NCBI RefSeq assembly: GCF_016903815.1
Contig: NZ_CP069973.1
Direction: 5' to 3' (one strand)
From: Escherichia coli
Lineage (GTDB): Bacteria > Pseudomonadota > Gammaproteobacteria > Enterobacterales > Enterobacteriaceae
Length of the DNA stretch: 64,000 nt
How positions within the stretch are numbered: the first letter of the stretch is position 1; each line of letters begins with the position of its first letter. Shown one piece after another: positions 8,613 through 62,777 of the stretch. Under the pieces are notes generated by a model, which had not been told where the DNA came from, did not search any database, and worked only from the letters and a program-made list of their open reading frames with translations. Both the position numbers and the translations under genes were made by a program.

Positions 8613-8622
8613 GCTATCCGGG

Positions 8623-9558: not shown

Positions 9559-9609
9559 TATTTCAGTTCTCTGGTACTAAATGGGGCAAATTGGGGGCAA
9601 ACTTTGCAA

Positions 9610-46317: not shown

Positions 46318-46648
46318 TACGGAAGAATTTCACTGGTTACCAGAGGATGGAATGAAAACAGAAAATAAACCATCGATAAAAACTGTAAGATTTGGCGATG
46401 GTTATGAGCAACGAAGTCCAAATGGACTTAATCATTCTCTGCGCGTTTTCACCTGTGATTTCAAAGTTGAGGCGAATGAACGTGATTCATTTGAAAAATT
46501 TTTAGCCCGGCATGAAGGCTATAAATCTTTTTTTTGGCGCCCGCCGGGTATTAACAGAAAAATCAGAGTGGTGTGTCGAACGTGGTCAGCGACAGAACAT
46601 ATCACCTATACCGATTTTTCGTGTCAGTTTGACGAAGTGGTGATCTGA
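46310..46648 (+). CDS. minor tail protein M
   Basis: 112 aa, with lambda gpM-like size and position. Confidence 0.85.
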
Positions 46649-47346
46649 TGCAGGACATACAACAGGAAACGCTGAATGAATGCATTCGTGCGGAGCAGTC
46701 GGCCAGCGTGGTGCTCTGGGAAATCGACCTGACCGAGGTAGGCGGGGATCGCTACTTTTTCTGTAATGAGCAGAACGAAAAAGGTGAGTCTGTCACCTGG
46801 CAGAGTCGGCAGTATCAGGCCTATCCCATTCAGGGGAGTGGATTTGAGATGAACGGCAAGGGCAGTGCTGCCCGTCCGACACTGACGGTCTCTAACCTGC
46901 ACGGCATGATCACCGGGATGGCGGAAGATCTGCAGAGTCTGGTCGGCGGAACGGTGGTCCGGCGTAAGGTTTACGCCCGCTTTCTGGATGCGGTGAACTT
47001 CGTCAACGGAAACAGCGAAGCCGATCCGGAGCAGGAGGTGATCAGCCGCTGGCGCATCGAGCAGTGCAGCGAACTGAGCGCGGTCAGTGCCTCTTTTGTA
47101 CTGTCCACGCCGACTGAAACGGATGGCGCTGTTTTTCCGGGACGTATCATGCTGGCCAACACCTGCACCTGGACCTATCGCGGCGATGAGTGCGGTTATA
47201 GCGGTCCGGCGGTCGCGGATGAATATGACCAGCCGACGTCCGATATCACGAAGGATAAATGCAGCAAATGCCTGAGTGGCTGTAAGTTTCGCAATAATGT
47301 CGGCAACTTTGGCAGCTTCCTTTCCATTAACAAACTTTCGCAGTAA
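46648..47346 (+). CDS. minor tail protein L
   Basis: 232 aa, with a lambda gpL-like C-terminal Cys cluster (CTWTYRGDECGY...CSKCLSGC). Confidence 0.9.
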   Translation: MQDIQQETLNECIRAEQSASVVLWEIDLTEVGGDRYFFCNEQNEKGESVTWQSRQYQAYPIQGSGFEMNGKGSAARPTLTVSNLHGMITGMAEDLQSLVGGTVVRRKVYARFLDAVNFVNGNSEADPEQEVISRWRIEQCSELSAVSASFVLSTPTETDGAVFPGRIMLANTCTWTYRGDECGYSGPAVADEYDQPTSDITKDKCSKCLSGCKFRNNVGNFGSFLSINKLSQ

Positions 47347-47351
47347 ATCCC

Positions 47352-48095
47352 ATGACAGAGACAGAATCAGCGATTCTGGCGCACGCCCGGCGATGTGCGC
47401 CAGCGGAGTCGTGCGGCTTCGTGGTGAGAACGCCGGAGGAGGAAAGATATTTTCCCTGCGTGAATATCTCCGGTGAGCCGGAGGAGTATTTCCGGATGTC
47501 GCCGGAGGACTGGCTGAGTGCAGAAATGCAGGGAGAGATTGTGGCGCTGGTCCACAGCCACCCCGGTGGTCTGCCCTGGCTGAGTGAGGCCGACCGGCGG
47601 CTGCAGGTACAGAGTGATTTGCCGTGGTGGCTGGTCTGCCGGGGGGCGATTCATAAATTCCGCTGTGTGCCGCATCTCACCGGGCGGCGCTTTGAGCACG
47701 GGGTAACGGACTGTTACACGCTGTTCCGGGACGCTTACCATCTGGCGGGAATTGAGATGCCGGATTTTCATCGCGGGGATGACTGGTGGCGTAACGGTCA
47801 GAATCTCTATCTGGATAATCTGGAGGCCACAGGGCTGTATCAGGTGCCGTTGTCAGCGGCGCAGCCGGGCGATGTGCTGCTGTGCTGTTTTGGTTCATCG
47901 GTGCCGAATCATGCCGCCATTTACTGTGGTGACAGCGAGCTGCTGCACCATATTCCTGAACAACTGAGCAAACGAGAGAGGTACACCGACAAATGGCAGC
48001 GACGCACACACTCCCTCTGGCGTCACCGGGCATGGCACGCATCTGCCTTTACGGGGATTTACAACGATTTGGCCGCCGCATCGACCTTCGAGTGA
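47352..48095 (+). CDS. tail assembly protein K (MPN/JAB plus NlpC/P60 domains)
   Basis: 247 aa with the HSHPGG JAMM-like motif and the NlpC/P60 Cys (GVTDCYTLF). Confidence 0.9.
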   Translation: MTETESAILAHARRCAPAESCGFVVRTPEEERYFPCVNISGEPEEYFRMSPEDWLSAEMQGEIVALVHSHPGGLPWLSEADRRLQVQSDLPWWLVCRGAIHKFRCVPHLTGRRFEHGVTDCYTLFRDAYHLAGIEMPDFHRGDDWWRNGQNLYLDNLEATGLYQVPLSAAQPGDVLLCCFGSSVPNHAAIYCGDSELLHHIPEQLSKRERYTDKWQRRTHSLWRHRAWHASAFTGIYNDLAAASTFE

Positions 48096-48633
48096 AAACG
48101 GGGGCCGAAGCCATCCGGGCGCTGGCCATGCAGATCCCGGCATTTCGTCAGAAACTGAGCGACGGCTGGTACCAGGTACGCATTGCCGGGCGTGATGCAG
48201 GTGAAACCGAATTGTCTGCCCGTCTTAATGAGCCGCTGGAAATGGTGCCGTGATCCATATCGTGCCGCGTCTGGCAGGAGCCAAAAGTGGCGGTGTGTTT
48301 CAGGCTGTGCTGGGGGCGGCTGTTATGGCGGTTGCTATATGGATGCCGGGGGTAGGAATTATGGCGAGTAATCTGCTGTTTTCTCTCGGTGCCAGTATGA
48401 CGCTTGGCGGTGTTGCACAGATGCTGGCCCCTAAACCCAGAACTCCCCGCACACAGACAACGGATAACGGCAAACAGAACACCTATTTTTCTTCACTGGA
48501 TAACATGGTTGCCCAGGGCAATGTTCTGCCGGTTCTGTACGGTGAAATGCGCGTGGGGTCACGCGTGGTTTCTCAGGAGATCAGCACGGCAGACGAAGGG
48601 GATGGTGGTCAGGTTGTGGTGATTGGTCGCTGA
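47993..48633 (+). pseudogene. tail assembly protein I, split by a frameshift
   Basis: Two ORFs (47993..48253 and 48250..48633) together are colinear with the 223-aa lambda gpI. The junction ...LNEPLE / NGAVIHIVPR aligns with lambda ...LHETLPDGAVIHIVPR, so one A appears to be missing from the A3 run at 48240-48242. Confidence 0.8.
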
Positions 48634-48693
48634 TGCAAAATGTTTTATGTGAAACCGCCTCCGGGCGGTTTTATCGTTTATGGAGCATGACGA

Positions 48694-51600
48694 ATGGGTA
48701 AAGGCAGCAGTAAGGGGCATACCCCGCGCGAAGCGAAGGACAACCTGAAGTCCACGCAGCTGCTGAGTGTGATCGATGCCATCAGCGAAGGGCCGGTTGA
48801 AGGTCCGGTGGATGGATTAAAAAGCGTGCTGCTGAACAGTACGCCGGTGCTGGACAGTGAGGGGAATACCAATATATCCGGCGTCACGGTGGTGTTCCGG
48901 GCCGGTGAGCAGGAGCAGACACCGCCGGAGGGATTTGAATCCTCCGGCTCCGAGACGGTGCTCGGTACAGAAGTGAAATATGACACGCCGATAACCCGGA
49001 CCATCACGTCGGCAAACATTGACCGTCTGCGTTTTACTTTCGGCGTGCAGGCACTGGTGGAAACCACCTCAAAGGGGGACAGGAATCCATCGGAAGTCCG
49101 CCTGCTGGTTCAGATACAACGTAACGGTGGCTGGGTGACGGAAAAAGACATCACCATTAAGGGTAAAACCACTTCACAGTATCTGGCCTCGGTTGTGGTG
49201 GATAACCTGCCGCCGCGCCCGTTTAATATCCGGATGCGCAGGATGACGCCGGACAGCACCACAGACCAGCTGCAGAACAAAACGCTCTGGTCGTCATACA
49301 CTGAAATCATCGATGTGAAACAGTGCTACCCGAACACGGCACTGGTCGGCGTGCAGGTGGACTCGGAACAGTTCGGCAGCCAGCAGGTGAGCCGTAATTA
49401 TCATCTTCGCGGGCGCATTCTGCAGGTGCCATCGAACTATAACCCGCAGACTCGGCAATACAGCGGTATCTGGGACGGAACGTTTAAGCCAGCATACAGC
49501 AATAACATGGCCTGGTGTCTGTGGGATATGCTGACCCATCCACGCTACGGCATGGGGAAACGTCTTGGTGCGGCGGATGTGGACAAATGGGCGCTGTATG
49601 TCATCGGCCAGTACTGCGACCAGTCAGTGCCGGACGGCTTTGGCGGCACGGAGCCGCGCATCACCTGTAATGCGTACCTGACCACACAGCGCAAGGCGTG
49701 GGATGTGCTCAGTGATTTCTGTTCGGCGATGCGCTGTATGCTGGTATGGAACGGGCAGACGCTGACGTTCGTGCAGGACCGACCGTCGGATAAGGTGTGG
49801 ACCTATAACCACAGTAATGTGGTGATGCCGGATGATGGCGCGCCGTTCCGCTACAGCTTCAGCGCCCTGAAGGACCGCCATAATGCCGTTGAGGTGAACT
49901 GGATTGACCCGGATAACGGCTGGGAGACGGCGACAGAGCTTGTTGAAGATACGCAGGCCATTCTCCGTTACGGTCGTAACGTCACGAAGATGGATGCCTT
50001 TGGCTGTACCAGCCGGGGGCAGGCGCACCGCGCCGGGCTGTGGCTGATTAAAACGGAACTGCTGGAAACGCAGACCGTGGACTTCAGCGTGGGTGCCGAA
50101 GGGCTTCGCCATGTACCGGGCGATGTCATTGAAATCTGTGATGATGACTATGCCGGTATCAGCACCGGTGGTCGCGTGCTGGCGGTGAACAGCCAGACCC
50201 GGACGCTGACGCTCGACCGTGAAATCACGCTGCCATCCTCCGGTACCACGCTGATAAGCCTGGTTGACGGAAGTGGTAATCCGGTCAGCGTGGAGGTTCA
50301 GTCCGTCACCGACGGACTTAAGGTGAAAGTGAACCGGGTTCCTGACGGCGTTGCAGAATACAGTGTGTGGGGGCTGAAGCTGCCGACGCTGCGCCAGCGC
50401 CTGTTCCGCTGTGTGAGTATCCGTGAGAACGATGACGGCACGTATGCCATCACTGCCGTGCAGCATGTACCGGAAAAAGAAGCCATCGTGGATAACGGGG
50501 CGCACTTTGACGGCGACCAGAGCGGCACGGTGAATGGTGTCACGCCGCCAGCGGTGCAGCACCTGACCGCCGAAGTCACCGCAGACAGCGGGGAATATCA
50601 GGTGCTGGCGCGCTGGGACACGCCGAAGGTGGTGAAGGGCGTGAGCTTCCTGCTTCGCCTGACCGTGGCAGCGGATGACGGCAGTGAGCGGCTGGTCAGC
50701 ACGGCCCGGACGACGGAAACCACATACCGCTTCACGCAACTGGCGCTGGGGCGGTACACGCTGACAGTCCGGGCGGTAAATGCGTGGGGACAGCAGGGCG
50801 ATCCGGCGTCGGTATCGTTCCGGATTGCCGCACCGGTAGCACCGTCGCGGATTGAGCTGACGCCGGGGTATTTTCAGATAACCGCCACGCCGCATCTTGC
50901 CGTTTATGACCCGACGGTACAGTTTGAGTTCTGGTTCTCGGAAAAGCGGATTACCGATATCAGGCAGGTTGAAACCACAGCCAGCTATCTTGGCACGGGG
51001 CTGTACTGGATAGCCGCCAGTATCAATATCAAACCGGGCCATGATTATTATTTTTACGTTCGCAGTGTGAACACCGTTGGCAAATCGGCATTCGTGGAGG
51101 CTGTTGGTCAGCCGAGTGATGATGCATCCGGCTATCTGGATTTTTTCAAAGGCGAGATAGGGAAAACCCATCTGGCTCAGGAGCTGTGGACGCAGATTGA
51201 TAACGGTCAGCTTGCGCCTGACCTGGCTGAAATCAGGACGTCCATTACGGATGTCAGCAATGAAATCACGCAGACCGTCAATAAGAAACTGGAAGACCAG
51301 AGTGCAGCGATCCAGCAGATACAGAAGGTTCAGGTTGATACAAATAATAACCTGAACAGCATGTGGGCAGTGAAGCTGCAGCAGATGCAGGACGGACGCC
51401 TTTATATTGCGGGTATCGGTGCCGGTATTGAGAACACCCCCGACGGCATGCAGAGTCAGGTGCTGCTGGCGGCGGACAGGATTGCGATGATTAATCCTGC
51501 GAATGGCAACACAAAGCCGATGTTTGTTGGTCAGGGCGATCAGATATTCATGAATGAAGTGTTCCTGAAATATCTGACGGCTCCCACCATTACCAGCGGC

Positions 51601-52173
51601 GGTAATCCTCCGGCATTTTCCCTGACACCGGACGGGCGACTGACGGCGAAAAATGCCGATATCAGCGGTAGCGTGAATGCGAACTCCGGGACGCTCAACA
51701 ACGTCACGATTAACGAGAACTGTCGGGTTCTGGGAAAACTGTCCGCGAACCAGATTGAAGGCGATCTCGTTAAAACAGTGGGCAAAGCTTTCCCCCGGGA
51801 CTCCCGTGCACCGGAGCGGTGGCCATCAGGGACCATTACCGTCAGGGTTTATGACGATCAGCCGTTTGACCGGCAAATTGTTATTCCAGCGGTGGCTTTC
51901 AGCGGTGCCAGACATGAACGGGAGAATAGCGATACTTATTCGTCATGCCGCCTGATAGTGAAGAAAAACGGGGCTGAAATTTATAACCGAACGGCTCTGG
52001 ATAATACTCTGATTTACACGGGTGTTATTGATATGCCTGCAGGCAGTGGCGTAATGACACTGGAGTTTTCTGTATCAGCATGGTGGGTAAATGGCTGGTA
52101 TCCCACAGCAAGTATCAGCGATTTGCTGGTTGTTGTGATGAAGAAAGCCACTGCAGGCATCACGATTAGCTGA
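48694..52173 (+). CDS. tail tip / host-specificity protein J
   Basis: 1159 aa, colinear with lambda gpJ ([34 protein letters not shown]...). Confidence 0.95.
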
Positions 52174-52191
52174 ATTTTATAACCCAGATAC

Positions 52192-52216
52192 GGGCGCCAG
52201 AAATGGCGCCTTTTTT
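52192..52216 (+). terminator. rho-independent terminator after J
   Basis: GGCGCC-agaaat-GGCGCC followed by TTTTTT. Confidence 0.65.
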
Positions 52217-52240
52217 ATTGCAGAAAAGCGAGAGGTAATT

Positions 52241-52840
52241 ATGCGTAAATTATGTGCTGTTATTCTGTCCACAGTAGTCTGGCTGGTCGCCGCTGGTACG
52301 CCAGCGAGCGCAGCAGAGCATCAGTCCACACTAAGCGCCGGGTATCTTCAGACCCATACTGATATGCCCGGCAACGATGACCTGAAGGGCATTAACGTGA
52401 AATACCGTTATGAATTTACGGACACGCTGGGGCTGGTGACGTCATTCAGTTATGCCAATGCCAAAGATGAGCAAAAAACGCATTACAGCGATACCCGCTG
52501 GCATGAAGATTCAGTGCGTAACCGCTGGTTCAGCATGATGGCGGGGCCGTCTGTACGCGTGAATGAATGGTTCAGTGCTTATGCGATGGCAGGTGTGGCT
52601 TACAGCCGTGTTTCAACTTTTTCCGGGGATTATCTCCGCGTAACTGACAGCAAGGGGAAAACGCACGATGTGCTGACCGGAAGTGATGACGGTCGCCACA
52701 GCAACACGTCTCTGGCGTGGGGGGCTGGCGTGCAGTTTAACCCGACCGAATCCGTGGCCATTGATATTGCTTATGAAGGCTCCGGCAGTGGTGACTGGCG
52801 CACTGACGGTTTCATCGTGGGTGTCGGTTATAAATTCTGA
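52241..52840 (+). CDS. lomR: Lom/Ail-family outer-membrane beta-barrel protein
   Basis: 199 aa with a signal peptide (VVWLVAAGTPASA) and the C-terminal ...GVGYKF typical of OMPs. Confidence 0.9.
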   Translation: MRKLCAVILSTVVWLVAAGTPASAAEHQSTLSAGYLQTHTDMPGNDDLKGINVKYRYEFTDTLGLVTSFSYANAKDEQKTHYSDTRWHEDSVRNRWFSMMAGPSVRVNEWFSAYAMAGVAYSRVSTFSGDYLRVTDSKGKTHDVLTGSDDGRHSNTSLAWGAGVQFNPTESVAIDIAYEGSGSGDWRTDGFIVGVGYKF

Positions 52841-52866
52841 TTAGCCAGGTAACACAGTGTTATGAC

Positions 52867-52893
52867 AGCCCGCCGGTTCAGGCGGGCTTTTTT
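52867..52893 (+). terminator. rho-independent terminator after lom
   Basis: AGCCCGCC-ggttca-GGCGGGCT followed by TTTTTT. Confidence 0.7.
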
Positions 52894-52904
52894 GTGGAGT
52901 GGAT

Positions 52905-55304
52905 ATGGCAGCAGTAAAAATCTCAGGTGTGCTGAAAGATTGTGCGGGAAAACCAATACAGAACTGCACTATTCAACTGAAGGCAAAGCGTAACAGCACC
53001 ACGGTACTGGTGAACACGGTGGCCTCTGAAAATCCGGATGAAGCCGGGCGTTACAGCATGGATGTTGAGCATGGCCAGTACAGCGTCATCCTGCTGGTTG
53101 AAGGTTTTCCGCCTTCACATGCCGGGACCATTACCGTCTATGAAGGCTCCAGACCAGGTACGCTGAATGATTTTCTCGGTGCCATGACGGAAGAGGATGT
53201 CATGCCGGAGGCATTGCGTCGTTTTGAGGCAATGGTGGAAGAAGTGGCACGCAACGCCGAAGCCGCCTCTCAGAGCGCAGCGGCGGCAAAGAAATCCGAA
53301 ACTGCAGCGGCATCATCGAAGAACGCGGCGAAAACCTCAGAAACGAATGCAGCTAATAGTGCACAGGCGGCAGCGACCTCAAAGACTGCATCGGCAAACT
53401 CTGCGACAGCAGCCAAAAAATCAGAAACCAACGCGAAAAACAGTGAGACAGCCGCAAAGACGAGCGAAACCAACGCAAAGTCCAGCCAGACGGCAGCGAA
53501 AACCAGCGAAACGAATGCCAAAGCCAGTGAAACTGCGGCAAAAAACAGCCAGGCTGCAGCAGCTGAAAGCGAGAGCGCGGCAGCCGGTTCTGCGACTTCA
53601 GCAGCTGGATCAGCAACTGCTGCGGCTAACAGCCAGAAAGCTGCGAAGACGAGTGAAACTAACGCAAAGTCCAGCCAGACGGCAGCGAAGACCAGCGAAA
53701 CGAATGCCAAAGCCAGTGAAACTGCGGCGAAAAGCAGTCAGGATGCAGCGGCCCAAAGCGAGAGTGCCGCAGCCAGTTCTGCAAGCGCGGCGGCTGCTTC
53801 TGCCACTGCATCAGCTAACAGTCAAAAAGCAGCAAAAACCAGTGAAACCAACGCAAAGGTGAGCGAAACAGCGGCTGCGAACTCAGCGAAAGCATCGGCA
53901 GCAAGCCAGACGGCAGCTAAAGCAAGCGAAGATGCAGCCAGAGAGTACGCAAGCCAGGCTGCGGAGCCGTATAAATATGTCTTACAGCCGCTGCCTGATG
54001 TGTGGATACCATTTAACGATTCGCTGGATATGATTACGGGCTTTTCGCCATCATATAAAAAAATTGTTATTGGTGATGATGAAATAACGATGCCTGGCGA
54101 CAAGGTTGTTAAGTTTAAACGCGCATCAACTGCCACATATATCAATAAATCAGGCGTATTTAGTGTTGCTAAAATTGATGAGCCACGATTTGAAAAAGAA
54201 GGTTTATTGATTGAAGGACAGCGCACTAACTATTTTGTTAAATCCAATACTCCCGCTGAATGGACGAGTACCAGCAATATCGATAAAACTAATAATGGTG
54301 TTGATGAATTTGGTTTTTCATATGCCAAAATGCGAACAAAAGATAATATGACAGGACAATCATCTGCACTTAGTCTGCATACATGCAGTGCATCCCGGGG
54401 GATTGATGTTAGTGGCGATAATAAGTATTGCACTGTTTCATGCAGGGTTAAAGCTCCTGATGGTCTTCGTTGTCGTTTGCGTTTTGAAAAATACGATGGG
54501 TCGGTTTATACATTTTTAGGAGATGCTTATTTAACTTTCGGAACTCTGATAATAGAAAAAACTGGCGGGGCAGCCAATAGAATAGCAGCTACTGCAACTA
54601 AAGATCCGGTTACAGGGTGGATTTTCTATGAGGCAACTATAGAAGCTGTTGAAGGTGAAACCTTAATTGGCGCAATGATTCAGTATGCGCCGAAAAAAGG
54701 TGGTATAACTGAAGCGGGAGATTATATTTACCTTGCAACACCACAATTTGAAAACGGCGGATGTGCTTCATCTTTTGTTATTACGACAACTGCACCCGCA
54801 ACCCGCTCCAGTGATATGGTGACGATCCCAACTGAAAATAATATCTATAATAGACCGCTTACGTGTCTTGTCGAGGTTAATAGAAATTGGGGCGATATTC
54901 CTCCTAATGTAGCACCGCGTATTTTTGATTTTTCTGGTGTGCCACCTATTGAGTCAATTACATACGCTTTTAACACAACTGAGAAATATTACGGTCAGCT
55001 TTATATGCAAACTTATAAAGCGTCGACAAGTACTTACGTTTCTAGTGTGTTTGCTGGTCGAGCTGATGTTCGAAAATTCATTGGTGGTTTTAATATTTAT
55101 TCTGATGGTACTAAACGAGTAGTTTCTAACGGTGAGGCTACTAAAACTATGAAAACGGAGTGGACGGGCGTAAAAACACGGACCTTTATTCGAATTGGAG
55201 GTCAAGCCACATCGGGAACTCGTCATCTATTCGGCCATTTGAGAAATCTTCGTCTCTGGCATAAAGAATTAACTGATGCGCAAATGGGGGAGAGTATTAA
55301 ATGA
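52905..55304 (+). CDS. side tail fibre protein (Stf family) with a divergent C-terminal receptor-binding region
   Basis: 799 aa. It has the lambda Stf-like N-terminus (MAAVKISGVLKDCAGKPIQNCTIQLKAKRNSTT...), an Ala/Ser/Thr-rich repeat shaft and a distinct C-terminal 400 aa. Confidence 0.85.
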   Translation: MAAVKISGVLKDCAGKPIQNCTIQLKAKRNSTTVLVNTVASENPDEAGRYSMDVEHGQYSVILLVEGFPPSHAGTITVYEGSRPGTLNDFLGAMTEEDVMPEALRRFEAMVEEVARNAEAASQSAAAAKKSETAAASSKNAAKTSETNAANSAQAAATSKTASANSATAAKKSETNAKNSETAAKTSETNAKSSQTAAKTSETNAKASETAAKNSQAAAAESESAAAGSATSAAGSATAAANSQKAAKTSETNAKSSQTAAKTSETNAKASETAAKSSQDAAAQSESAAASSASAAAASATASANSQKAAKTSETNAKVSETAAANSAKASAASQTAAKASEDAAREYASQAAEPYKYVLQPLPDVWIPFNDSLDMITGFSPSYKKIVIGDDEITMPGDKVVKFKRASTATYINKSGVFSVAKIDEPRFEKEGLLIEGQRTNYFVKSNTPAEWTSTSNIDKTNNGVDEFGFSYAKMRTKDNMTGQSSALSLHTCSASRGIDVSGDNKYCTVSCRVKAPDGLRCRLRFEKYDGSVYTFLGDAYLTFGTLIIEKTGGAANRIAATATKDPVTGWIFYEATIEAVEGETLIGAMIQYAPKKGGITEAGDYIYLATPQFENGGCASSFVITTTAPATRSSDMVTIPTENNIYNRPLTCLVEVNRNWGDIPPNVAPRIFDFSGVPPIESITYAFNTTEKYYGQLYMQTYKASTSTYVSSVFAGRADVRKFIGGFNIYSDGTKRVVSNGEATKTMKTEWTGVKTRTFIRIGGQATSGTRHLFGHLRNLRLWHKELTDAQMGESIK
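53457..53880 (+). repeat. tandem 189-bp (63-codon) repeats within stf, about 2.2 copies
   Basis: Units start at 53457 and 53646 (AAGACGAG(C/T)GAAAC(C/T)AACGCAAAGTCCAGCCAGACGGCAGCGAA...), with a partial third unit from 53835. Confidence 0.8.
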
Positions 55305-55582
55305 AAGATTTAACACTCAAATTTGCAGACAGGGCCGACTTTTCGGCCTTTATGGAGAGCATTGGCTATTATGATGACGAGTCGATGCAGGATGATATTC
55401 TTATTGACGTGATAGGTAATGTGTACAAAGAAACCGGAGAACTTACTGAAGATGGCGAGCCGGTATGTGTTAAGGAGGACGGATATTTTGTAAATGTGCG
55501 CATCATTAATGATTCGCAAATATCGTCATTATTCGATGAACACGCGGTTGCTGTTGAGCATCAACTCCGTAGCTGGATGTGA
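55301..55582 (+). CDS. hypothetical acidic protein downstream of stf
   Basis: 93 aa, with an ATGA overlap with the stf stop. No Tfa-family similarity recognised. Confidence 0.5.
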   Translation: MKDLTLKFADRADFSAFMESIGYYDDESMQDDILIDVIGNVYKETGELTEDGEPVCVKEDGYFVNVRIINDSQISSLFDEHAVAVEHQLRSWM

Positions 55583-55591
55583 GGAAGAAAA

Positions 55592-56296
55592 ATGGCTACA
55601 TCGACAGTAATTCCTGATGACATCAAAACGCTAAAGGGAGATGTCAGTAAGGCAAAGGAAGATATTTCCTCAATTAACGTAAAAGTATCAACGCTTCAGA
55701 CTGATATGGACAGTGCAAAGCAGGATATCAGTACCAGATACACAAAAACAGAAGTGGATAATAAGCTGAAAAACAAAGTGGAAGTGAACGATCTGGAAAG
55801 TGGTCGTTATGGCGGAGATTTTTACCCGCTGACTGGCCGTGAAGCGTTTTATTTATGGGGATTGGGCACAACTACAGCGGCGGCAAATCTTTATCTTAAT
55901 CCTGACCCTGCAATTTCGTCTGTGCTGCGGTCAACATCGTCTATCCGCTATAAACATTCAGTAGAGACGATAGATTCAGAGCACGCCGATCTCATTTTCA
56001 GGATGCGCCCTGTGTGGTACAGGTCGCAATGCGAAAATGACAGGCGTGACTGGGGATTCTATGGATTGATTGCCGAGGAAGTAGGAGAAATTGCCCCTCA
56101 GTTTGTTCACTGGCGACCAGCCAACGAAGATGATGCACCGGAAACCATTTCCAGCAATGGCCTTGTTGCCGAAGGTGTAATGTACGAACGTCTGGTTGTT
56201 CCACTGATTCACCATATCCAGAAGCTGACTGAAAGAGTTGATGAACTTGAGTCAGAATTAAAGTTGTTATCCGTTTCCCGAAGCGATATCGGATAA
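55592..56296 (+). CDS. short tail-fibre-like protein with a C-terminal intramolecular chaperone (peptidase S74-like) domain
   Basis: 234 aa with an N-terminal coiled coil. The C-terminal segment SSIRYKHSVETI...FYGLIAEEV...ERLVVPLIHHIQKLTERVDELE resembles the endosialidase/T5 pb1 auto-cleaving chaperone domain. Confidence 0.65.
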   Translation: MATSTVIPDDIKTLKGDVSKAKEDISSINVKVSTLQTDMDSAKQDISTRYTKTEVDNKLKNKVEVNDLESGRYGGDFYPLTGREAFYLWGLGTTTAAANLYLNPDPAISSVLRSTSSIRYKHSVETIDSEHADLIFRMRPVWYRSQCENDRRDWGFYGLIAEEVGEIAPQFVHWRPANEDDAPETISSNGLVAEGVMYERLVVPLIHHIQKLTERVDELESELKLLSVSRSDIG

Positions 56297-56306
56297 AGGA
56301 GGCGTA

Positions 56307-56600
56307 ATGGATATAACACCTTTCCTTCATGCACTTTGTGCTGTGGCTGCGCAGGTACTGGTTGGTCTTTTTACCGGAAACTGGGCTTACGGGGCGATAG
56401 CTGGTTGTACGTTCTTCATTGCGCGTGAACATACCCAGGCAGAATATCGCTGGATTGAAATGTTCGGGCATGGCAAGCGAATGAATATGCCGTGGTGGGG
56501 CGGTTTTGATCCGCGTGCGTGGGATGTGGCAAGCCTGATGGATTTTGCTGTGCCGGTGGTGGCGTGTCTGCTGGTCTGGCTGTTGGTTAATCGTGGGTGA
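56307..56600 (+). CDS. hypothetical 3-TM membrane protein
   Basis: 97 aa with SD AAGGAGG upstream. It is the last gene of the fibre cassette. Confidence 0.55.
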   Translation: MDITPFLHALCAVAAQVLVGLFTGNWAYGAIAGCTFFIAREHTQAEYRWIEMFGHGKRMNMPWWGGFDPRAWDVASLMDFAVPVVACLLVWLLVNRG

Positions 56601-56614
56601 AAAAAGGTGAGCTG

Positions 56615-56730
56615 TATATGCAACGGAGGAAGAAACCTCGTTGCGGGAAGCCTGGAAGAAGTATCGGGTGTTGCTGAACCGTGTTGATACGTCAACTGCA
56701 CAGATATTGAATGGCCAGCACTGCCGTAGG
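56615..56730 (+). pseudogene. 3' remnant of a tail-fibre assembly (Tfa-family) gene
   Basis: It reads ...[26 protein letters not shown], then a 1-nt loss breaks the expected (D)IEWPALP-stop ending. There is no upstream Tfa coding sequence. Confidence 0.55.
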
Positions 56731-56826
56731 GTAAAACATATAAATTCTATAATTAGATGTATCTTTCCATTTACGGCAAGGAAGGGGGCTTGGAAGACGT
56801 AAGGCATCTCACACCGAGATTATTTT

Positions 56827-57418
56827 TTATATGTCAGGTGTCTGAAGTTTTGCTTTGGCTCTTAAAATGGTTTGCCGCGAGGTTTTGAATTCCCGGGCAA
56901 TGGCACTTATACTTACACCTGACTTAATCCGTTCGAATACCACCTGTTTCTGTTCTTCATTTAACACAGGTGGTCGACCAAAACGTTTCCCTGCGCCCCG
57001 GGCTCTTACTATCCCGGAATGAGTGCGTTCAAGTAAAAGGTCTCGTTCAAATTCAGCGACTGCTGAAATTACTTGCATCATCATTTTTCCTGTTGGACTG
57101 GTCAGGTCAATGCCCCCCCAATGCTAAGCAATGCACTCTGATACCTGTTTCGGTCAGTTGTTCCACTGTTTTCCTGATATCCATTGCATTACAACCAAGG
57201 CGATCCAGTTTTGTCACAATCAATTGATCACCACATTTCAGGCGAGCAAGCAACCGGTTAAAACCAGGACGCTCACTGGTTGCTGCTGAGCCGCTAATGT
57301 GTTCTTCGATTATTTGCTGAGGTTTGATTTTAAAACCTGCACTTTCGATTTCCCGGCGTTGATTTTCGGTGGTCTGATCCAGCGTTGATATCCGACAGTA
57401 AGCAAAAATTCGAGACAT
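56827..57418 (-). pseudogene. pin: Pin-family serine DNA invertase, frameshifted in a G7 (C7 on the plus strand) run
   Basis: The N fragment (57107..57418) ends ...VHCLALGGH-stop. The C fragment [21 protein letters not shown]...HTH lies in another frame. Removing one G from 57113-57119 restores ...[16 protein letters not shown]..., as in PinQ/PinR. Confidence 0.85.
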
Positions 57419-57734
57419 AGTGAGACTCTATACGAAATTGGTGCTCATATCATAATGCATCTCAGAAAATAATTTTGATTATTTTTGTGCATGTTTGTAT
57501 GTACACGTTCGAAAATAAACGAATGCGTATGCAACCCCGTAATTTTGGTGAGACCCAAAATCGATTTTGTGAAAAATGGCTTTAACTCGGTTTGTTTTTC
57601 GAGTTCCGGGCGGACTCAAGGAAGAAGAATAGTGTTGCGTGTTATTTTAACCAGATTTCAAGTTGTTTGGTCGTGGAAAAGTGGAGCAAAATGTTGTTAA
57701 AGTGGAAAAATGATAAAAAAGTAAGTTTATTATA

Positions 57735-57968
57735 TTACATTTTACCATTTAAATTTTGGTTGTCTTTAAGAGCTGATATCGCTGTTTGTAATAATTCTTT
57801 GTTATCCAGCCATGATTTTTTCTTTATGTTTCCTTCAATGTAATCAAGCAATGTTCTGGTATTGATAGGTCTTCCCTGTTTTGCTACTTCCACTACAGCA
57901 TCCCCTAGGATAATTCTGACTTCAGGAAGCTGCGCAGGGAACCACTTTAGGGTGTCTTTTGATTTCAT
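57735..57968 (-). CDS. ydfK: YdfK/YnaE family prophage protein (cold-shock inducible in K-12)
   Basis: 77 aa from MKSKDTLKWFPAQLPEVRIILGDAVVEVAKQGRPINTRTLLDYIEG.... Confidence 0.85.
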   Translation of the reverse strand: MKSKDTLKWFPAQLPEVRIILGDAVVEVAKQGRPINTRTLLDYIEGNIKKKSWLDNKELLQTAISALKDNQNLNGKM

Positions 57969-58753
57969 GAATATATTCCTTAAAATATTATTGATTTTCA
58001 TTGCGATATTGTATGTCTGATTCAGGATATGTTGACTTATACATCGGTTTTGTCTGGGTTATTGGATATGCCAATCCCTAATTTTATTAGAGCATGACTA
58101 AAAATGCTGAATATGATAAGGAGCGAAGTGATTATCAGTATGCTGTTCATATAGCCTCGAATTAGTAATGTGTTATATATGATATAGTTGACAATTTTTA
58201 TCCTGGGTGTTCTTAAAGTTCGTAGATAAACATTGTCGTTTCAGGTATACAGGAATGCTAACAGATGGCGGCAAAAATCAGGCGGTTTATGGCGCAAGCT
58301 GAAGTGGCAACTGCAAACTATCTTATGCAGAGACTCTACACGGATTGGGTTTAAAAGTATACATAGATAACAGTTTTTATCTGAAGAAGAAAAATATCAA
58401 GGTGATATAGCCTATATGCCTTTGATGCGGAGGAATGAATGTGATGGGAGTGATGTATCTGAATAGTTGAAAAACCGCAGACACGCCTTATGCAAGAACG
58501 TGCTGCGGTTGGCTGGTAAATTTTTCGATAGTGCGAGTATTGAATGATTTCCAGCCGTTATTGATTTTACGCGTAACTCCATGAAAAAACTACTTATCTG
58601 TTGAGGAGTTTTTTTGGGGCATATATGGGACAGAAATAGGCCCCAGATAGACACTGAGATCGAACTTAGGATGCTTTTTAAAAAATGCAACTATCTGAAA
58701 AAACCTAGAAAACGCCAAGGAAACCACAGGATGGGAAAAAACACCTGTGAATT

Positions 58754-60037
58754 ATGGATTTCCAGTTATATTCGCTCGGCGCAGCGTTAGTGTTTCATGA
58801 AATATTTTTTCCTGAATCATCAACGGCAATGGCGTTAATTCTGGCAATGGGAACCTACGGTGCAGGTTATGTGGCGCGTATTGTCGGAGCATTTATTTTC
58901 GGCAAAATGGGCGACAGAATCGGGCGTAAAAAAGTGCTCTTTATTACCATCACCATGATGGGGATCTGTACCACCTTAATTGGTGTGCTGCCGACCTATG
59001 CACAAATTGGTGTGTTTGCGCCAATTTTGCTGGTGACGCTGCGTATTATTCAGGGGCTGGGGGCAGGCGCGGAAATTTCCGGTGCCGGCACGATGCTGGC
59101 GGAATATGCACCAAAAGGTAAGCGCGGAATTATCTCCTCATTTGTTGCTATGGGGACTAACTGCGGAACCTTGAGCGCAACGGCAATCTGGGCCTTTATG
59201 TTCTTCATTCTCAGTAAAGAGGAACTGCTGGCGTGGGGATGGCGTATACCGTTCCTGGCGAGCGTTGTCGTGATGGTCTTTGCTATCTGGTTGCGTATGA
59301 ATCTGAAAGAAAGCCCGGTCTTTGAGAAGGTTAACGACAGCAACCAACCGACAGCAAAACCTGCACCTGCTGGTAGCATGTTCCAGAGCAAATCCTTCTG
59401 GCTGGTAACAGGGCTGCGTTTTGGTCAGGCTGGTAACTCCGGTTTAATTCAGACTTTCCTTGCAGGCTATTTAGTGCAGACGTTATTGTTTAACAAAGCA
59501 ATTCCAACAGGTGCATTGATGATCAGTTCGATTCTCGGCTTTATGACCATTCCGTTCCTTGGTTGGTTATCCGATAAAATTGGTCGCCGGATCCCGTATA
59601 TTATTATGAATACCTCTGCGATTGTGCTGGCGTGGCCAATGCTTTCTATCATCGTAGATAAAAGCTATGCCCCGAGCACCATTATGGTTGCACTGATTGT
59701 GATTCATAACTGTGCGGTGCTGGGATTATTTGCTCTGGAAAACATTACCATGGCAGAAATGTTCGGCTGTAAAAACCGCTTTACCCGGATGGCTATTTCT
59801 AAAGAAATTGGTGGTCTTATCGCTTCCGGTTTTGGTCCTATCCTGGCGGGTATTTTCTGCACCATGACGGAATCCTGGTATCCGATCGCCATTATGATCA
59901 TGGCATATTCAGTGATTGGTTTAATCTCTGCGCTGAAAATGCCAGAAGTGAAAGACCGTGATTTAAGTGCGCTGGAAGACGCTGCGGAAGATCAACCGCG
60001 TGTTGTCAGAGCTGCGCAACCTTCCATAAGTCTTTAA
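58754..60037 (+). pseudogene. ydfJ: MFS transporter YdfJ, 5'-truncated at the prophage junction
   Basis: 427-aa ORF starting at the internal MDFQLYSLGAALVFHEIFFPESS.... About 28 N-terminal codons of the ancestral gene are absent, and similarity to ydfJ begins around 58745. Confidence 0.8.
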
Positions 60038-60125
60038 ATCCTCAATCCCTTCTCTTACCGGAGAGGGGATTTTTATTCATATAACAAAACATGTAGCTTG
60101 CCATATTTATATTTAAGGAATTGTT

Positions 60126-61586
60126 ATGGGAAATAATTTGTTATCAGCAAAAGCGACACTCCCTGTTTATGATCGTAATAACCTGGCCCCAAGAATTGTT
60201 CATTTAGGCTTTGGTGCATTTCACCGTGCGCATCAGGGCGTGTATGCCGATATTCTTGCTACGGAACATTTCAGTGACTGGGGATATTATGAGGTCAACT
60301 TAATCGGCGGCGAACAGCAAATTGCCGATTTACAACAGCAAGATAATCTTTATACCGTTGCGGAAATGTCGGCCGATGCGTGGACGGCTCGCGTCGTTGG
60401 CGTCGTTAAAAAAGCCTTGCACGTACAGATTGATGGCTTAGAAACCGTGTTGGCTGCGATGTGTGAACCGCAAATCGCGATTGTCTCTCTGACAATCACC
60501 GAAAAAGGGTATTTCCACTCTCCGGCGACCGGACAGTTAATGCTCGATCACCCGATGGTCGTTGCCGACGTACAAAATCCCCACCAGCCGAAAACTGCAA
60601 CAGGGGTGATTGTCGAGGCGCTGGCTCGCCGTAAAGCGGCAGGACTTCCCGCATTTACCGTCATGTCATGTGACAACATGCCAGAAAACGGTCATGTTAT
60701 GCGTGACGTTGTCACTTCCTACGCGCAAGCTGTTGATGTAAAACTGGCACAATGGATCGAAGAAAACGTGACTTTCCCATCAACAATGGTGGACCGTATT
60801 GTGCCCGCAGTGACAGAGGATACGCTGGCGAAAATCGAACAACTTACCGGTGTGCGCGATCCTGCTGGCGTTGCCTGTGAACCTTTCCGCCAGTGGGTAA
60901 TAGAAGATAACTTTGTTGCCGGACGTCCGGAATGGGAAAAAGCGGGAGCCGAACTGGTTAGTGATGTGCTGCCTTATGAAGAGATGAAGTTGCGCATGCT
61001 CAACGGCAGTCATTCATTCCTGGCGTATCTGGGGTATCTTGCCGGATATCAGCACATTAATGACTGCATGGAAGATGAACATTATCGTCATGCAGCGTAT
61101 GCCTTGATGTTGCAGGAACAAGCGCCGACGTTGAAAGTGCAGGGCGTTGATTTGCAAGATTACGCTAACCGATTAATTGAACGCTATAGCAACCCGGCGC
61201 TACGTCATCGAACCTGGCAGATTGCGATGGATGGCAGCCAGAAATTGCCACAGCGGATGTTGGATTCTGTTCGCTGGCATCTGGCGCATGACAGCAAGTT
61301 CGATCTGCTGGCGCTGGGCGTCGCAGGTTGGATGCGTTATGTCGGTGGTGTTGATGAACAGGGAAATCCGATAGAAATCAGTGACCCACTGTTACCTGTT
61401 ATTCAGAAGGCTGTACAAAGTAGTGCCGAAGGGAAAGCGCGCGTCCAGTCATTGCTGGCGATTAAGGCGATCTTTGGTGATGATTTGCCAGACAATAGCT
61501 TGTTTACTGCAAAAGTGACGGAAGCGTACTTGTCTTTATTAGCGCATGGTGCGAAAGCGACCGTGGCGAAATATTCCGTGAAGTAA
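60126..61586 (+). CDS. ydfI: mannitol-dehydrogenase-family oxidoreductase YdfI
   Basis: 486-aa ORF with the N-terminal Rossmann motif [13 protein letters not shown]. Confidence 0.9.
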
Positions 61587-61614
61587 AAAAAGCAATGCCG
61601 CCATCGGCGGCATT
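61584..61614 (-). terminator. rho-independent terminator of ydfZ (hairpin shared with the ydfI 3' end)
   Basis: AATGCCGCC-atc-GGCGGCATT. On the minus strand it is followed by T7. Confidence 0.65.
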
Positions 61615-61621
61615 CACACGC

Positions 61622-61825
61622 TTAGTTCATGCCGAGACGAATCAGGTCCAGAGGTGCCAGTTTCTCTTCACAACCTTCAACAACTACGGTTTTTCCGCGG
61701 CGGATTTGCTCAGCGGTCAGACCTTCAGTATCAATCGACAGGATCTTGCCAGTGTGACCGGTGCCGCTAACCATAACACGGCTGCCAGTGGTGATTGCGT
61801 TACGGTTACGATCGTAGGTCGTCAT
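61622..61825 (-). CDS. ydfZ: YdfZ (small selenium-binding protein)
   Basis: 67 aa, [36 protein letters not shown].... Confidence 0.85.
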
Positions 61826-62002
61826 AGGTGTTTTCTCCTTTCTGATTTACAGTCGAAGCCCACGTAACGGGCGCAATATAAATACTCCTGTCGAGTGAAA
61901 TATTTTTTGTTTTTGATCAAGCTCACATCTTTTTTGATGCATGCATGAGCCATAAGGCGGGGCGAATAGACTCTCACCCCGGATGGGATGAGAGGAAATG
62001 AA

Positions 62003-62689
62003 TTACTCTTCGCTAAACCAGTCGCTGTTTTCCTGACGGATCTGGCGCACGGATTCGCTGATTTCCTGCAAATGTTGCGTCATTGCACGTTCTACCGCAT
62101 CGCCATCACGTTTTTGCAGGGCAGAGAAAATCTCAAGATGCTGGCGTAACAGCATTTCTGGTGGAGAAACGTGGTCGAAACTCATATAGCGCACGCGATC
62201 AACGGTCGCTTTCAGGTTCTCAATGGTATCCCACGCCAGTTGACAGTCGGCAATCTGGGTCAGGAGTTGATGGAAGTTGTCATCAAGTTCAAAAAAATCA
62301 TCCAGTTGCTTGCGCTCTATGGCAATGCGTTGCTGGTGAAGATTTTGTTCCAGTTGGTAGCACTGGCTTTCGGTAATCATGCTCGCCGCCCGACGCGCCA
62401 CCGCGCACTCAATGGCCTGACGGATAAAACTGCCGTTGCGCACCTGGGCCATGGAAATTTTGTTGACGTAGCTGCCACGCTGCGGACGAATTTGAATCAG
62501 GCCGTTTTCCGCCAGTTTAATAAAGGCTTCACGAACCGGCTGGCGTGACACATTGAAACGAACAGAAACTTCTTTTTCCGACAACGGTGTGCCTGGTGCA
62601 ATCAGGCAATGGACAATGTCGCGACGAAGAATACGATAAATCTGCTGATTGACAGGCTGTGTGGGATTAAGTTGCGTTTCGACGGTCAT
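62003..62689 (-). CDS. ydfH: GntR-family transcriptional regulator YdfH (RspR)
   Basis: 228 aa with an N-terminal wHTH ([39 protein letters not shown]) and an FCD domain. Confidence 0.9.
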
Positions 62690-62777
62690 TCGTTCTTGCT
62701 TGTGAGTGAGTTAACTGCATGAGTCTACCACTTTTTTGTGACAAGCAATAACCCGGCAGTTACGCCGGGTATAAAAA

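What the first reader, a model, noticed from the sequence alone, without database searches (positions are those of the whole stretch)
55301..56730. Tail-fibre cassette replacement: three novel genes inserted where stf-tfa should meet pin, leaving a 3' tfa fossil
Directly upstream of pin there is only the last 35 or so codons of a Tfa-family chaperone (…[26 protein letters not shown]…), itself frameshifted. In place of the rest sit three co-oriented genes: a 93-aa acidic protein overlapping the stf stop, a 234-aa fibre-like protein, and a 97-aa 3-TM protein. The fibre-like protein consists of a coiled coil plus a peptidase-S74-type intramolecular chaperone domain. The Stf C-terminal 400 aa also differ from the lambda/K-12 type. 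This looks like a horizontal swap of the receptor-recognition end that orphaned the invertase system. I see no inverted alternative fibre segment between 55.3 and 56.8 kb. The trailing membrane protein occupies the position of Cor-type superinfection-exclusion genes.
Basis: partly seen in the sequence, partly recalled or inferred. Interest (0 to 1): 0.5.

Follow-up and report, generated by a model that had tools for sequence, protein, structure and literature searches.

The report
Common alternative phage side-tail-fibre module
This stretch is the ordinary far end of a side-tail-fibre gene set that about a fifth of sequenced E. coli and several free-living lambda-like phages carry in place of the lambda-type stf-tfa pair. 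It joins the neighbouring invertase region through an old, widely shared recombination scar, so it is not a new or local event.

Summary
**Observation: confirmed.** The window holds stf (801 aa), three co-oriented genes of 93, 234 and 97 aa, the last 37 codons of a TfaQ-type tfa with a 1-nt deletion, and then pin. Pin is itself broken by an extra C.

**Interpretation: only partly right.**
- The three genes are not novel. The whole arrangement is 100% identical in 124 complete E. coli genomes.
- The individual genes occur in 14-34% of 5,426 complete genomes.
- The cassette is in viable phages: PhiR49_1 and IdasGreatGrand carry it, HannyBb has a different middle gene, and phage 21 has none.
- A diverged stf-92aa-S74 set is in T1-like phages.
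- The junction between the 97-aa gene and the tfa remnant is in 1,053 genomes and in HannyBb, where pin is intact.
- Pin has no crossover sites here, in HannyBb, or in K-12 Qin, which has a full tfaQ. The swap therefore did not orphan it.

**Most likely function (inferred).**
- Stf is a glycan-binding lateral fibre with a GTA-head-spike-type domain.
- The 93-aa protein is its obligate partner.
- The 234-aa protein is an optional small fibre with a self-cleaving S74 chaperone domain.
- The 97-aa protein is a conserved inner-membrane protein that is not a virion part.

The 97-aa family follows receptor-binding genes in unrelated phage types and is the one open question here.

The parts
52899..55304 (+). 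stf, side tail fibre (801 aa). It has a lambda-type N-terminal anchor, an Ala/Ser/Thr-rich repeat shaft, and a non-lambda distal half starting at about residue 350.
   Evidence: Pfam PF08400 at residues 5-134, E 3e-65. Full-length match to phrog_1419. NCBIfam GTA_spike_fiber NF048003 at residues 437-637, 58 bits against a cutoff of 36. The distal half aligns with the T1-like lateral tail fibre of phage PeterMerian. No similarity to K-12 StfQ.
55301..55582 (+). 93-aa acidic protein, translationally coupled to stf. It is the obligate partner of this Stf type.
   Evidence: ATGA overlap with the stf stop. phrog_1361, E 3e-45. It lies directly after stf in every locus examined, temperate and lytic. 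pI 4.1. No profile similarity to Tfa.
55592..56296 (+). 234-aa small fibre protein. It has a conserved N-terminal peptide (1-20), a coiled-coil-like shaft, a short tip, and a C-terminal S74 intramolecular chaperone domain (residues about 116-234, nt 55937-56293).
   Evidence: Pfam PF13884. PDB 8hqz_d, E 5e-7, and the MYRF ICA domain 7dc3. S116, S117 and K121 are invariant in 23 homologues that have unrelated N-terminal parts. The N-terminus is shared with the 343-aa allele of HannyBb and the 231-aa protein of PeterMerian.
56307..56600 (+). 97-aa three-helix membrane protein of an uncharacterised family that follows receptor-binding-protein genes.
   Evidence: phrog_1443. No Pfam, NCBIfam or PADLOC hit. 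AF2 pLDDT 91.5. 27 invariant residues in 30 members. Genomic contexts.
56601..56618 (.). Recombination joint between the alternative fibre module and the Qin-type right arm.
   Evidence: K-12 Qin homology (98.3%) begins at 56619. The joint is shared with HannyBb, PhiR49_1 and Lambda_4C10 and with 1,053 E. coli genomes.
56619..56729 (+). tfa remnant: the last 37 codons of a TfaQ-type gene, with a 1-nt deletion at 56703/56704.
   Evidence: Alignment to K-12 tfaQ and to HannyBb. PGAP pseudogene call. Weak PHROG tail-fibre-assembly hits.
56827..57418 (-). pinQ-type serine invertase gene, inactivated by one extra C in the run 57113-57119. It has no cis crossover sites.
   Evidence: Resolvase and HTH_7 domains are split over two ORFs. 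The run is C7 here and C6 in K-12 and HannyBb. No pix-like sites.
57735..58765 (-). ydfK/ynfT end of the phage right arm, up to the attachment site in ydfJ.
   Evidence: PGAP annotation of the identical locus. HannyBb homology ends at 58762-58765, next to its integrase.

Best explanation
Window 52.9-58.8 kb is the intact right arm of a HannyBb-like lambdoid phage genome. It carries a widespread alternative side-tail-fibre module.

**Proposed roles**
1. Stf keeps the lambda-type N-terminal anchor and shaft. Its distal half is a lectin-like domain of the GTA-head-spike-fibre type that varies between alleles. It most likely binds a surface glycan for reversible adsorption.
2. The 93-aa acidic protein is made by coupled translation. 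It is the dedicated folding or assembly partner, or a tip subunit, of that distal half. It takes the place of Tfa without being related to it.
3. The 234-aa protein is an optional second small fibre. A conserved 20-residue N-terminus docks it on the fibre. A short coiled-coil shaft and tip trimerise with the help of the C-terminal S74 domain, which then cuts itself off at Ser116 using Lys121.
4. The 97-aa protein is not a virion part. It is an inner-membrane protein made alongside the receptor-binding genes, and it probably acts on a conserved envelope component, for example in superinfection exclusion or surface modification.

**History**
The module was joined long ago to a Qin-type tfa-pin-ydfK arm by recombination inside the conserved 3' end of tfa. 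That scar has since spread with the module. In this lineage two later 1-nt indels damaged the scar and pin.

**Shown:** gene content, homologies, breakpoints, distribution, absence of inversion sites. **Inferred:** all four protein roles.
For: **Distribution and history**
- The arrangement is identical in 124 genomes.
- The cassette is 98% identical in phage PhiR49_1 and 92% in IdasGreatGrand.
- HannyBb matches window 56306-58762 at 99.3% and differs by 3 nt in 902 nt across tfa'-pin.
- The junction is in 1,053 genomes.

**Stf**
- GTA_spike_fiber domain.
- Variable blocks lie between invariant linkers in five alleles.

**93-aa protein**
- It follows this Stf type in all loci seen. These include lytic T1-like phages and phage 21, which has no middle gene.

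**234-aa protein**
- The S74 domain has an invariant Ser-Ser...Lys motif.
- Alleles of 221-343 aa share only the N-terminus and the S74 domain.
- The gene is absent from the phage-21-type module and from 22 of 80 IMG/VR loci. It therefore cannot be an essential chaperone of Stf.
- There is a precedent: the branched two-protein lateral fibres of DT57C (PMC10713586, PMC4728585).

**97-aa protein**
- Absent from the T1-like modules.
- More frequent than the other two genes.
- Its G+C is 53%, against 40-45% for the fibre genes.
- It lies immediately after tail fibre or tailspike genes in P2/HP1-like, P22-like, lambda-like and other phages.
Against: - No experiment or structure bears on any of the four roles.
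- The AF2 model of the 93-aa protein is poor (pLDDT 47), so nothing supports a chaperone fold.
- After cleavage the 234-aa protein would leave only about 115 residues. That is very small for a receptor-binding fibre, and BASEL annotators call its T1-like homologue a 'putative lateral tail fiber chaperone'.
- The 97-aa family also occurs inside late tail operons of myoviruses and in Aeromonas jumbo phages, and as a lone chromosomal gene. This does not fit a purely lysogenic-conversion role.
- No separate promoter or terminator was found around it.
- Whether the prophage in this window is inducible is unknown.
Confidence: 0.8

Rival explanations
1. One reading: a recent horizontal swap in this particular prophage inserted three novel genes, destroyed tfa and left the Pin inversion system without its substrate.
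For: The tfa remnant and the breakpoint at 56619 are real. The stf 3' half, the 93-aa gene and the 234-aa gene have lower G+C than their flanks. No inverted segment is present.
Against: The same joint is in 1,053 genomes and in viable phages. The genes are common. K-12 Qin, with an intact tfaQ, also lacks crossover sites, whereas e14 shows them. The only lineage-specific changes are two 1-nt indels.
Confidence: 0.05
2. The 234-aa protein is a trans-acting folding chaperone for Stf, an S74 chaperone domain expressed as a separate protein, and is not a fibre component.
For: BASEL annotation of the T1-like homologue as 'putative lateral tail fiber chaperone'. Other records call it 'chaperone of endosialidase'. 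Half of the protein is the S74 domain. The mature N-terminal part is very short.
Against: Phage 21 and many prophages carry the same Stf type and the 92-aa gene with no such gene. The catalytic Ser/Lys residues for self-cleavage are invariant. Alleles differ by inserted receptor-binding-like domains (343 aa in HannyBb; 355-405 aa in P0157/P0158) while keeping the N-terminal docking peptide. The known S74 domains recovered here (T5 family, MYRF) sit at the C-terminus of the chain they fold; that they act in cis is prior knowledge.
Confidence: 0.2
3. The 97-aa protein serves virion production rather than the lysogen. For example it could be a membrane-anchored factor for fibre or spike maturation, or a lysis-related holin-like protein.
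For: It is translationally coupled to fibre or spike genes inside late operons. No promoter or terminator of its own was found. Its predicted N-out/C-in three-helix topology resembles class I holins. It occurs in Aeromonas jumbo phages.
Against: It is absent from the lytic T1-like versions of the same fibre module. It is about 60% identical next to completely different receptor-binding proteins. It occurs as a lone chromosomal gene away from phage genes. It has a long invariant polar loop that holins lack. The prophage has its own lysis genes elsewhere in related genomes.
Confidence: 0.2

Closest known systems
Side-tail-fibre regions of lambdoid phages HannyBb/Tritos/2G7b, PhiR49_1, IdasGreatGrand and phage 21
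   Same: The gene order is the same: J-(lom)-stf-92/93aa-(S74 gene)-97aa. PhiR49_1 and IdasGreatGrand have the same three genes at 98% and 92% DNA identity. HannyBb has the same 97aa-tfa'-pin-ydfK arm at 99.3%.
   Different: HannyBb has a 343-aa middle gene and an intact pin. Phage 21 has no middle gene and carries sitABCD after the 97-aa gene. The window has two extra 1-nt indels.
Lateral tail fibre locus of T1-like Drexlerviridae and Dhillonvirus (for example BASEL Bas05 PeterMerian; PMC8594841)
   Same: The distal half of the lateral tail fibre is homologous (42% identity overall, with blocks that are 100% conserved). It is followed by a 92-aa protein (45%) and a 231-aa S74 protein (58%).
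   Different: The N-terminal anchor is different, there is no 97-aa gene, and the phages are lytic. The function there is also only inferred (O-antigen or glycan binding).
Branched L-shaped tail fibres LtfA/LtfB of T5-like phage DT57C (PMC4728585, PMC10713586; PDB 8hqz)
   Same: The fibre is built from two proteins, each ending in an S74 intramolecular chaperone. The 234-aa protein shares the S74 domain and the '...DI.T.YTKTEVD..L' shaft repeat with LtfA.
   Different: Here the first protein (Stf) has no S74 domain, the second protein is far smaller, and a 93-aa gene lies between them. Attachment of the second protein to the first has not been shown.
K-12 cryptic prophage Qin (stfQ-tfaQ-pinQ-ydfK at ydfJ)
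   Same: The region from 56619 to the chromosomal flank is 98.3% identical. The attachment site is the same, and the pin type and tfa 3' end are the same.
   Different: Qin has a lambda-type stfQ fragment and a full tfaQ, and lacks the 93/234/97-aa genes.
Din-family invertible fibre systems (e14 Pin/P segment, Mu Gin/G, P1 Cin/C)
   Same: There is a serine invertase gene of the same family next to the tail-fibre genes.
   Different: There is no pair of inverted crossover sites and no alternative inverted fibre/tfa copy. The invertase is frameshifted.
Cor/Llp-type superinfection-exclusion genes next to receptor-binding genes
   Same: The 97-aa gene sits immediately downstream of the receptor-binding genes.
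   Different: There is no sequence relation and no lipoprotein signal. It is a polytopic inner-membrane protein, and its sequence is conserved regardless of which receptor-binding protein it follows.

Membership tests
Peptidase S74 / intramolecular chaperone auto-processing domain (234-aa protein) | Sequence match to the family model above the curated threshold | tested here: met
   PF13884, 27.3 bits against a cutoff of 22, residues 116-172. PDB 8hqz_d E 5e-7 and MYRF ICA 7dc3 E 0.023.
Peptidase S74 / intramolecular chaperone auto-processing domain (234-aa protein) | Conserved Ser-Lys catalytic dyad at the start of the domain | tested here: met
   S116, S117 and K121 are invariant in 23 homologues. 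They align with 'TSgIeYK' of DT57C LtfA.
Peptidase S74 / intramolecular chaperone auto-processing domain (234-aa protein) | Autoproteolytic release after trimerisation | not testable with these tools
   Needs protein expression or virion mass spectrometry.
Tfa / Caudo_TAP tail fibre assembly protein (remnant 56619-56729) | Homology to a known Tfa | tested here: met
   98% DNA identity to the last 37 codons of K-12 tfaQ.
Tfa / Caudo_TAP tail fibre assembly protein (remnant 56619-56729) | Complete, translatable gene | tested here: not met
   The N-terminal 155 codons are missing, there is no start codon in frame, and a 1-nt deletion lies at 56703/4. PGAP calls it a pseudogene.
Tfa family (93-aa protein as a diverged Tfa) | Profile similarity to Tfa proteins | tested here: not met
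   hhalign of A4 against TfaQ/TfaE/TfaP gives probability 0.2%. No Pfam hit. The test is weak because the profiles are shallow.
Din-family invertible tail-fibre switch (Pin/Gin/Cin/Hin) | Functional serine invertase | tested here: not met
   The Resolvase and HTH_7 domains are present but split by an extra C in the run 57113-57119.
Din-family invertible tail-fibre switch (Pin/Gin/Cin/Hin) | Pair of inverted crossover sites (core AAACCNNGGTTT) flanking an invertible segment | tested here: not met
   None in the window, in HannyBb or in K-12 Qin. The e14 pix pair was recovered as a positive control.
Din-family invertible tail-fibre switch (Pin/Gin/Cin/Hin) | Alternative fibre C-terminus and tfa in inverted orientation | tested here: not met
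   No minus-strand fibre or tfa ORFs lie between stf and pin.
Lambda-type Stf | N-terminal prophage tail fibre domain | tested here: met
   PF08400, E 3e-65.
Lambda-type Stf | Lambda/K-12-type distal, Tfa-dependent C-terminus | tested here: not met
   No similarity to StfQ. Instead NF048003 GTA_spike_fiber is found.
Cor-type superinfection exclusion protein (97-aa protein) | Sequence relation to Cor, or a small outer-membrane lipoprotein | tested here: not met
   No annotated family hit in Pfam, PHROGs, NCBIfam or PADLOC. Cys11 is not conserved and has no lipobox. The model is a three-helix membrane protein.
Cor-type superinfection exclusion protein (97-aa protein) | Excludes phages that use the cognate receptor | not testable with these tools
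   Needs plating and adsorption assays.

The most novel reading that the evidence does not exclude
The 97-aa protein represents an undescribed, highly conserved family of small inner-membrane proteins.

- The family has 426 clusters at 50% identity, all 58-146 aa, with no Pfam model.
- It has an invariant motif, REHTQAEYRWI...G.R..MPWWGGFD.
- Phages of all three tail morphologies place it directly behind their receptor-binding gene.

It would act on a conserved envelope component to block superinfection or to alter the cell surface, independently of which receptor the neighbouring fibre recognises.
Probability: 0.3. Interest if true: 0.55.

Novelty: already known. Interest (0 to 1): 0.2.

Why it matters
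As a finding it mostly does not matter. It is a textbook case of modular exchange at tail-fibre loci, frozen in a common E. coli prophage. The joint is so widespread that it says nothing about this strain.

Two practical points remain.
1. Annotation pipelines call the 93-aa and 97-aa genes 'hypothetical' and sometimes split the stf ORF. The comparative picture here gives usable working roles for a module present in roughly a fifth of E. coli genomes. These are an obligate 93-aa partner, an optional S74 fibre, and an independent 97-aa membrane gene.
2. The 97-aa family is a cheap experimental target. It is one small gene, easily expressed, with a clear positional link to receptor-binding proteins across phage types.

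Tried and rejected
- **AF2 of the 93-aa protein.** The alignment was shallow (82-99% identity) and the model poor (pLDDT 47), so no fold search was attempted.
- **Library and PDB sequence scans.** PADLOC, NCBIfam and Pfam gave nothing for the 93-aa and 97-aa proteins. Pfam was also empty for ten distant 97-aa relatives. PDB sequence searches gave only chance-level hits for both.
- **Domain fusions.** A profile search of 1.84 billion representatives found no fusions of the 97-aa domain to anything larger.
- **Literature.** Searches by protein accession and by phage name returned nothing. The Eligo lambda-Stf engineering paper does not treat this module.
- **93-aa allele against middle gene.** Among 80 close E. 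coli loci the 93-aa allele type tracks the presence of a middle gene. The T1-like 92-aa proteins, which do have an S74 neighbour, look closer to the phage-21 type on reading the alignment. I therefore treat the pattern as linkage rather than functional coupling.
- **The scar as a relic crossover site.** I considered that the tfa remnant might be kept because it hides a crossover site. No Din-type core lies within it.
- **IMG/VR scan.** It returned only near-identical E. coli loci, so it added no diversity.

Full report
**What is there.** The window from 48.7 kb onward reads as the late right arm of a lambdoid prophage:
- J (48694-52173)
- lom (52241-52840)
- stf (52899-55304, 801 aa)
- three co-oriented genes of 93, 234 and 97 aa
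- a short tfa-like stretch
- a pin gene on the opposite strand
- ydfK, then the chromosomal gene ydfJ

The 93-aa gene starts inside the stf stop codon, and its product is acidic (pI 4.1). The 234-aa product passes the Pfam threshold for Peptidase_S74. It also matches the C-terminal chaperone domain of the DT57C L-shaped tail fibre in the PDB (8hqz, E 5e-7). The 97-aa product is modelled with high confidence as three helices (pLDDT 91.5).

**The tfa remnant and pin.**
- Aligned against K-12, homology to the cryptic prophage Qin begins exactly at 56619, 18 nt after the stop of the 97-aa gene. It runs at 98.3% identity to 63041, into the chromosomal flank.
- Position 56619 lies 37 codons before the end of tfaQ (192 aa).
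- Relative to both K-12 and phage HannyBb, the window lacks one G at 56703/56704. This shifts the frame nine codons before the tfa stop.
- The window also has one extra C in the run 57113-57119, which splits pin into ORFs of 103 and 85 aa.
- NCBI's pipeline reached the same two pseudogene calls on an identical locus.

**The cassette is common and lives in viable phages.**
- The 3.2-kb stretch 54300-57500 is 100% identical in 124 complete E. coli genomes.
- Taken singly, the 93-aa gene is in 983 of 5,426 complete genomes, the 234-aa gene in 739, and the 97-aa gene in 1,864.
- A 201-nt probe spanning the joint between the 97-aa gene and the tfa remnant is covered in 1,053 genomes, including UTI89.
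- In the phage collection the three genes occur together, after J-lom-stf, in PhiR49_1 (98%) and IdasGreatGrand (92%).
- HannyBb, Tritos and 2G7b have the same 93-aa and 97-aa genes around a different 343-aa middle gene.
- HannyBb is 99.3% identical to the window from 56306 to 58762, where its own integrase region begins. It carries the same tfa remnant without the deletion, and an intact invertase.
- The tfa scar, pin and ydfK are therefore parts of a circulating phage genome. They are not debris of a resident element that an incoming cassette damaged.

**Module anatomy from comparison.**
- Classical phage 21, Lambda_4C10 and many prophages have stf, a 92-aa gene and the 97-aa gene with no middle gene.
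- T1-like phages and related metagenomic contigs have a homologous distal stf, a 92-aa gene and an S74 gene of 221-268 aa, but no 97-aa gene.
- Among 80 IMG/VR loci carrying the 97-aa gene, 22 are of the phage-21 type, 35 have the 234-aa type and 20 have the 343-aa type.
- The 92/93-aa gene is thus always tied to this Stf type, in both temperate and lytic phages. The S74 gene and the membrane gene are each dispensable add-ons.
- Base composition agrees. The stf 3' half, the 93-aa gene and the 234-aa gene have 40-45% G+C. J, the stf 5' half and the 97-aa gene have 53-56%.

**Stf.**
- The N-terminal 134 residues are the standard prophage tail fibre anchor. Ala/Ser/Thr-rich repeats follow.
- From about residue 350 the protein aligns with the lateral tail fibre of the T1-like phage PeterMerian. 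The linker PLPDVWIPFNDSLDMITGFSPSYKKIVIGDDEITMPGDK is identical in all five alleles compared. Variable blocks follow, and then a conserved tail.
- Residues 437-637 match NCBI's domain model for the head-spike fibre of the Rhodobacter gene transfer agent, at 58 bits against a cutoff of 36. There is a weak echo in PDB 6tb9.
- There is no similarity to K-12 StfQ.
- I infer a glycan-binding lateral fibre. This is in line with what the BASEL authors propose, without direct proof, for the homologous fibres of small siphoviruses (PMC8594841).

**The 234-aa protein.**
- In an alignment of 23 homologues, the residues Ser116, Ser117, Lys121 and a further 17 positions of the C-terminal domain are invariant. 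The N-terminal parts range from nothing to more than 200 residues of unrelated fibre domains.
- The Ser-Lys pair is the catalytic dyad known from the endosialidase and T5 chaperone domains (prior knowledge). It aligns with the corresponding residues of DT57C LtfA.
- The first 20 residues, MATSTVIPDDIKTLKGDVSK, are kept in the otherwise different HannyBb allele. They are also kept in the T1-like proteins, whose DNA has diverged to about 67%.
- The combination of a conserved N-terminus, a variable middle and a conserved self-cleaving end is the signature of a fibre protein that docks on a fixed partner.
- Together with its absence from phage 21, this argues against the annotation 'lateral tail fiber chaperone'. 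It argues for a small accessory fibre, comparable in logic to LtfB on LtfA in DT57C (PMC4728585, PMC10713586). This is inference; I rate it about three to one over the trans-chaperone reading.

**The 93-aa protein.** Nothing is known about it.
- It has no family annotation beyond PHROG 'unknown function'.
- It has no PDB relative.
- It shows no profile similarity to Tfa.
- Its model is poor.
- Its fixed position and coupling to stf, including in lytic phages, make a fibre-specific assembly or tip role the most economical guess.

**The 97-aa protein.** This is the only part I find worth a further look.
- Thirty homologues from Escherichia, Salmonella, Citrobacter, Leclercia, Aeromonas, Comamonas and metagenomes are 56-91% identical to it. 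They share 27 invariant residues, including His8, Gln16, Cys34, Asp79, Pro83 and the block REHTQAEYRWI...G.R..MPWWGGFD.
- A profile search of 1.84 billion representative proteins finds 426 clusters. All are 58-146 aa, none is fused to another domain, and none is in Pfam.
- The gene lies immediately after, and often overlaps the stop of, the following genes:
  - an S74-ended tail fibre in P2/HP1-like prophages of Aeromonas and Leclercia
  - a GDSL-esterase tailspike
  - the tailspike of the P22-like phage JEP4
  - the fibre assembly gene of the myovirus phiHAP-1
  - a 72-aa gene that follows a 2,520-aa J-like protein in Comamonas
  - stf in phage 21
- It also occurs alone in chromosomes.
- N-termini are acidic and C-tails basic across the family. 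This suggests an N-out, C-in topology with the invariant loop in the periplasm.
- Because the sequence stays the same while the neighbouring receptor-binding protein changes completely, its target should be a conserved envelope component rather than a specific receptor. In that respect it differs from Cor or Llp.
- Exclusion of superinfecting DNA or modification of the surface are plausible, but neither is shown.

**The invertase question.**
The test was to look for crossover sites.
- The repeat finder recovers the e14 pix pair (21 nt, 95% complementary, 1.8 kb apart). My pattern for the Din-family core matches that pair on inspection.
- Neither method finds anything comparable between stf and pin in the window, in HannyBb or in K-12 Qin. 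The pix consensus has no match with up to three mismatches anywhere in the 64 kb.
- Qin has a complete tfaQ beside pinQ and is equally devoid of sites. So the orphan state does not depend on the cassette.

**Verdict.** The evolutionary idea of a module replacement with a tfa scar is right, but the event is old, widespread and carried by live phages. The claims of novelty and of an orphaned inversion system do not hold. The locus is an ordinary member of a known kind of tail-fibre region. Interest is low, apart from the uncharacterised membrane protein family.

Noticed in passing
window 1-10845 and 46626-64000: The prophage is a hybrid that joins two attachment sites. Its left flank is the Rac site (dbpA, ttcA, intR). 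Its right flank is the Qin site (ydfK, ydfJ, ydfI), in the opposite orientation to K-12. It is collinear with the Qin-site prophage of strain 222 only from 46626 onward (98.4%). This implies an inversion of the chromosomal interval between the Rac-site and Qin-site prophages, produced by recombination in the tail genes.
   Followed up: partly
window 57113-57119 (minus-strand pin): Pin is inactivated by a single extra C in a homopolymer run, C7 against C6 in K-12 pinQ and HannyBb.
   Followed up: yes
window 56307-56600; loci L007, L013-L018, L021: The 97-aa membrane protein family sits directly behind receptor-binding genes in siphoviruses, myoviruses and podoviruses of several genera. It has a near-invariant polar motif and no Pfam model.
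   Followed up: partly
window 53940-56296: G+C drops to 40-45% across the stf 3' half, the 93-aa gene and the 234-aa gene. J, the stf 5' half and the 97-aa gene have 53-56%. This marks the fibre-tip genes as a unit of separate origin from the 97-aa gene.
   Followed up: yes
window 53280-53900 (stf shaft): Internal direct repeats of about 250 nt at roughly 82% identity encode the Ala/Ser/Thr-rich shaft. IdasGreatGrand lacks about 70 residues here. PGAP splits the identical gene into a pseudogene plus a shorter CDS, although the ORF is continuous in the window.
   Followed up: no
L021 (phage 21) 5386-8835; L011; L005: In the phage-21-type variant the 97-aa gene is followed by the sitABCD iron/manganese transporter as cargo. 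In Lambda_4C10 an IS66-family element also interrupts stf.
   Followed up: no
L002 (PhiR49_1) 6078-6105 and 6913-6987: PhiR49_1 has a Din-type crossover-like core (GAACCTTGGTTT) about 120 nt after its window homology (which includes the tfa remnant) ends at 5968, and a second tfa fragment about 1 kb further on. It has no invertase there. These are possibly relics of an older invertible arrangement.
   Followed up: no
L008 (Aeromonas rivipollensis) 6001-9645: A chromosomal, non-phage copy of the 97-aa family lies next to a RIO1-type kinase gene and two lipid A acyltransferase genes. This may be coincidence, or it may hint at a link to LPS.
   Followed up: no
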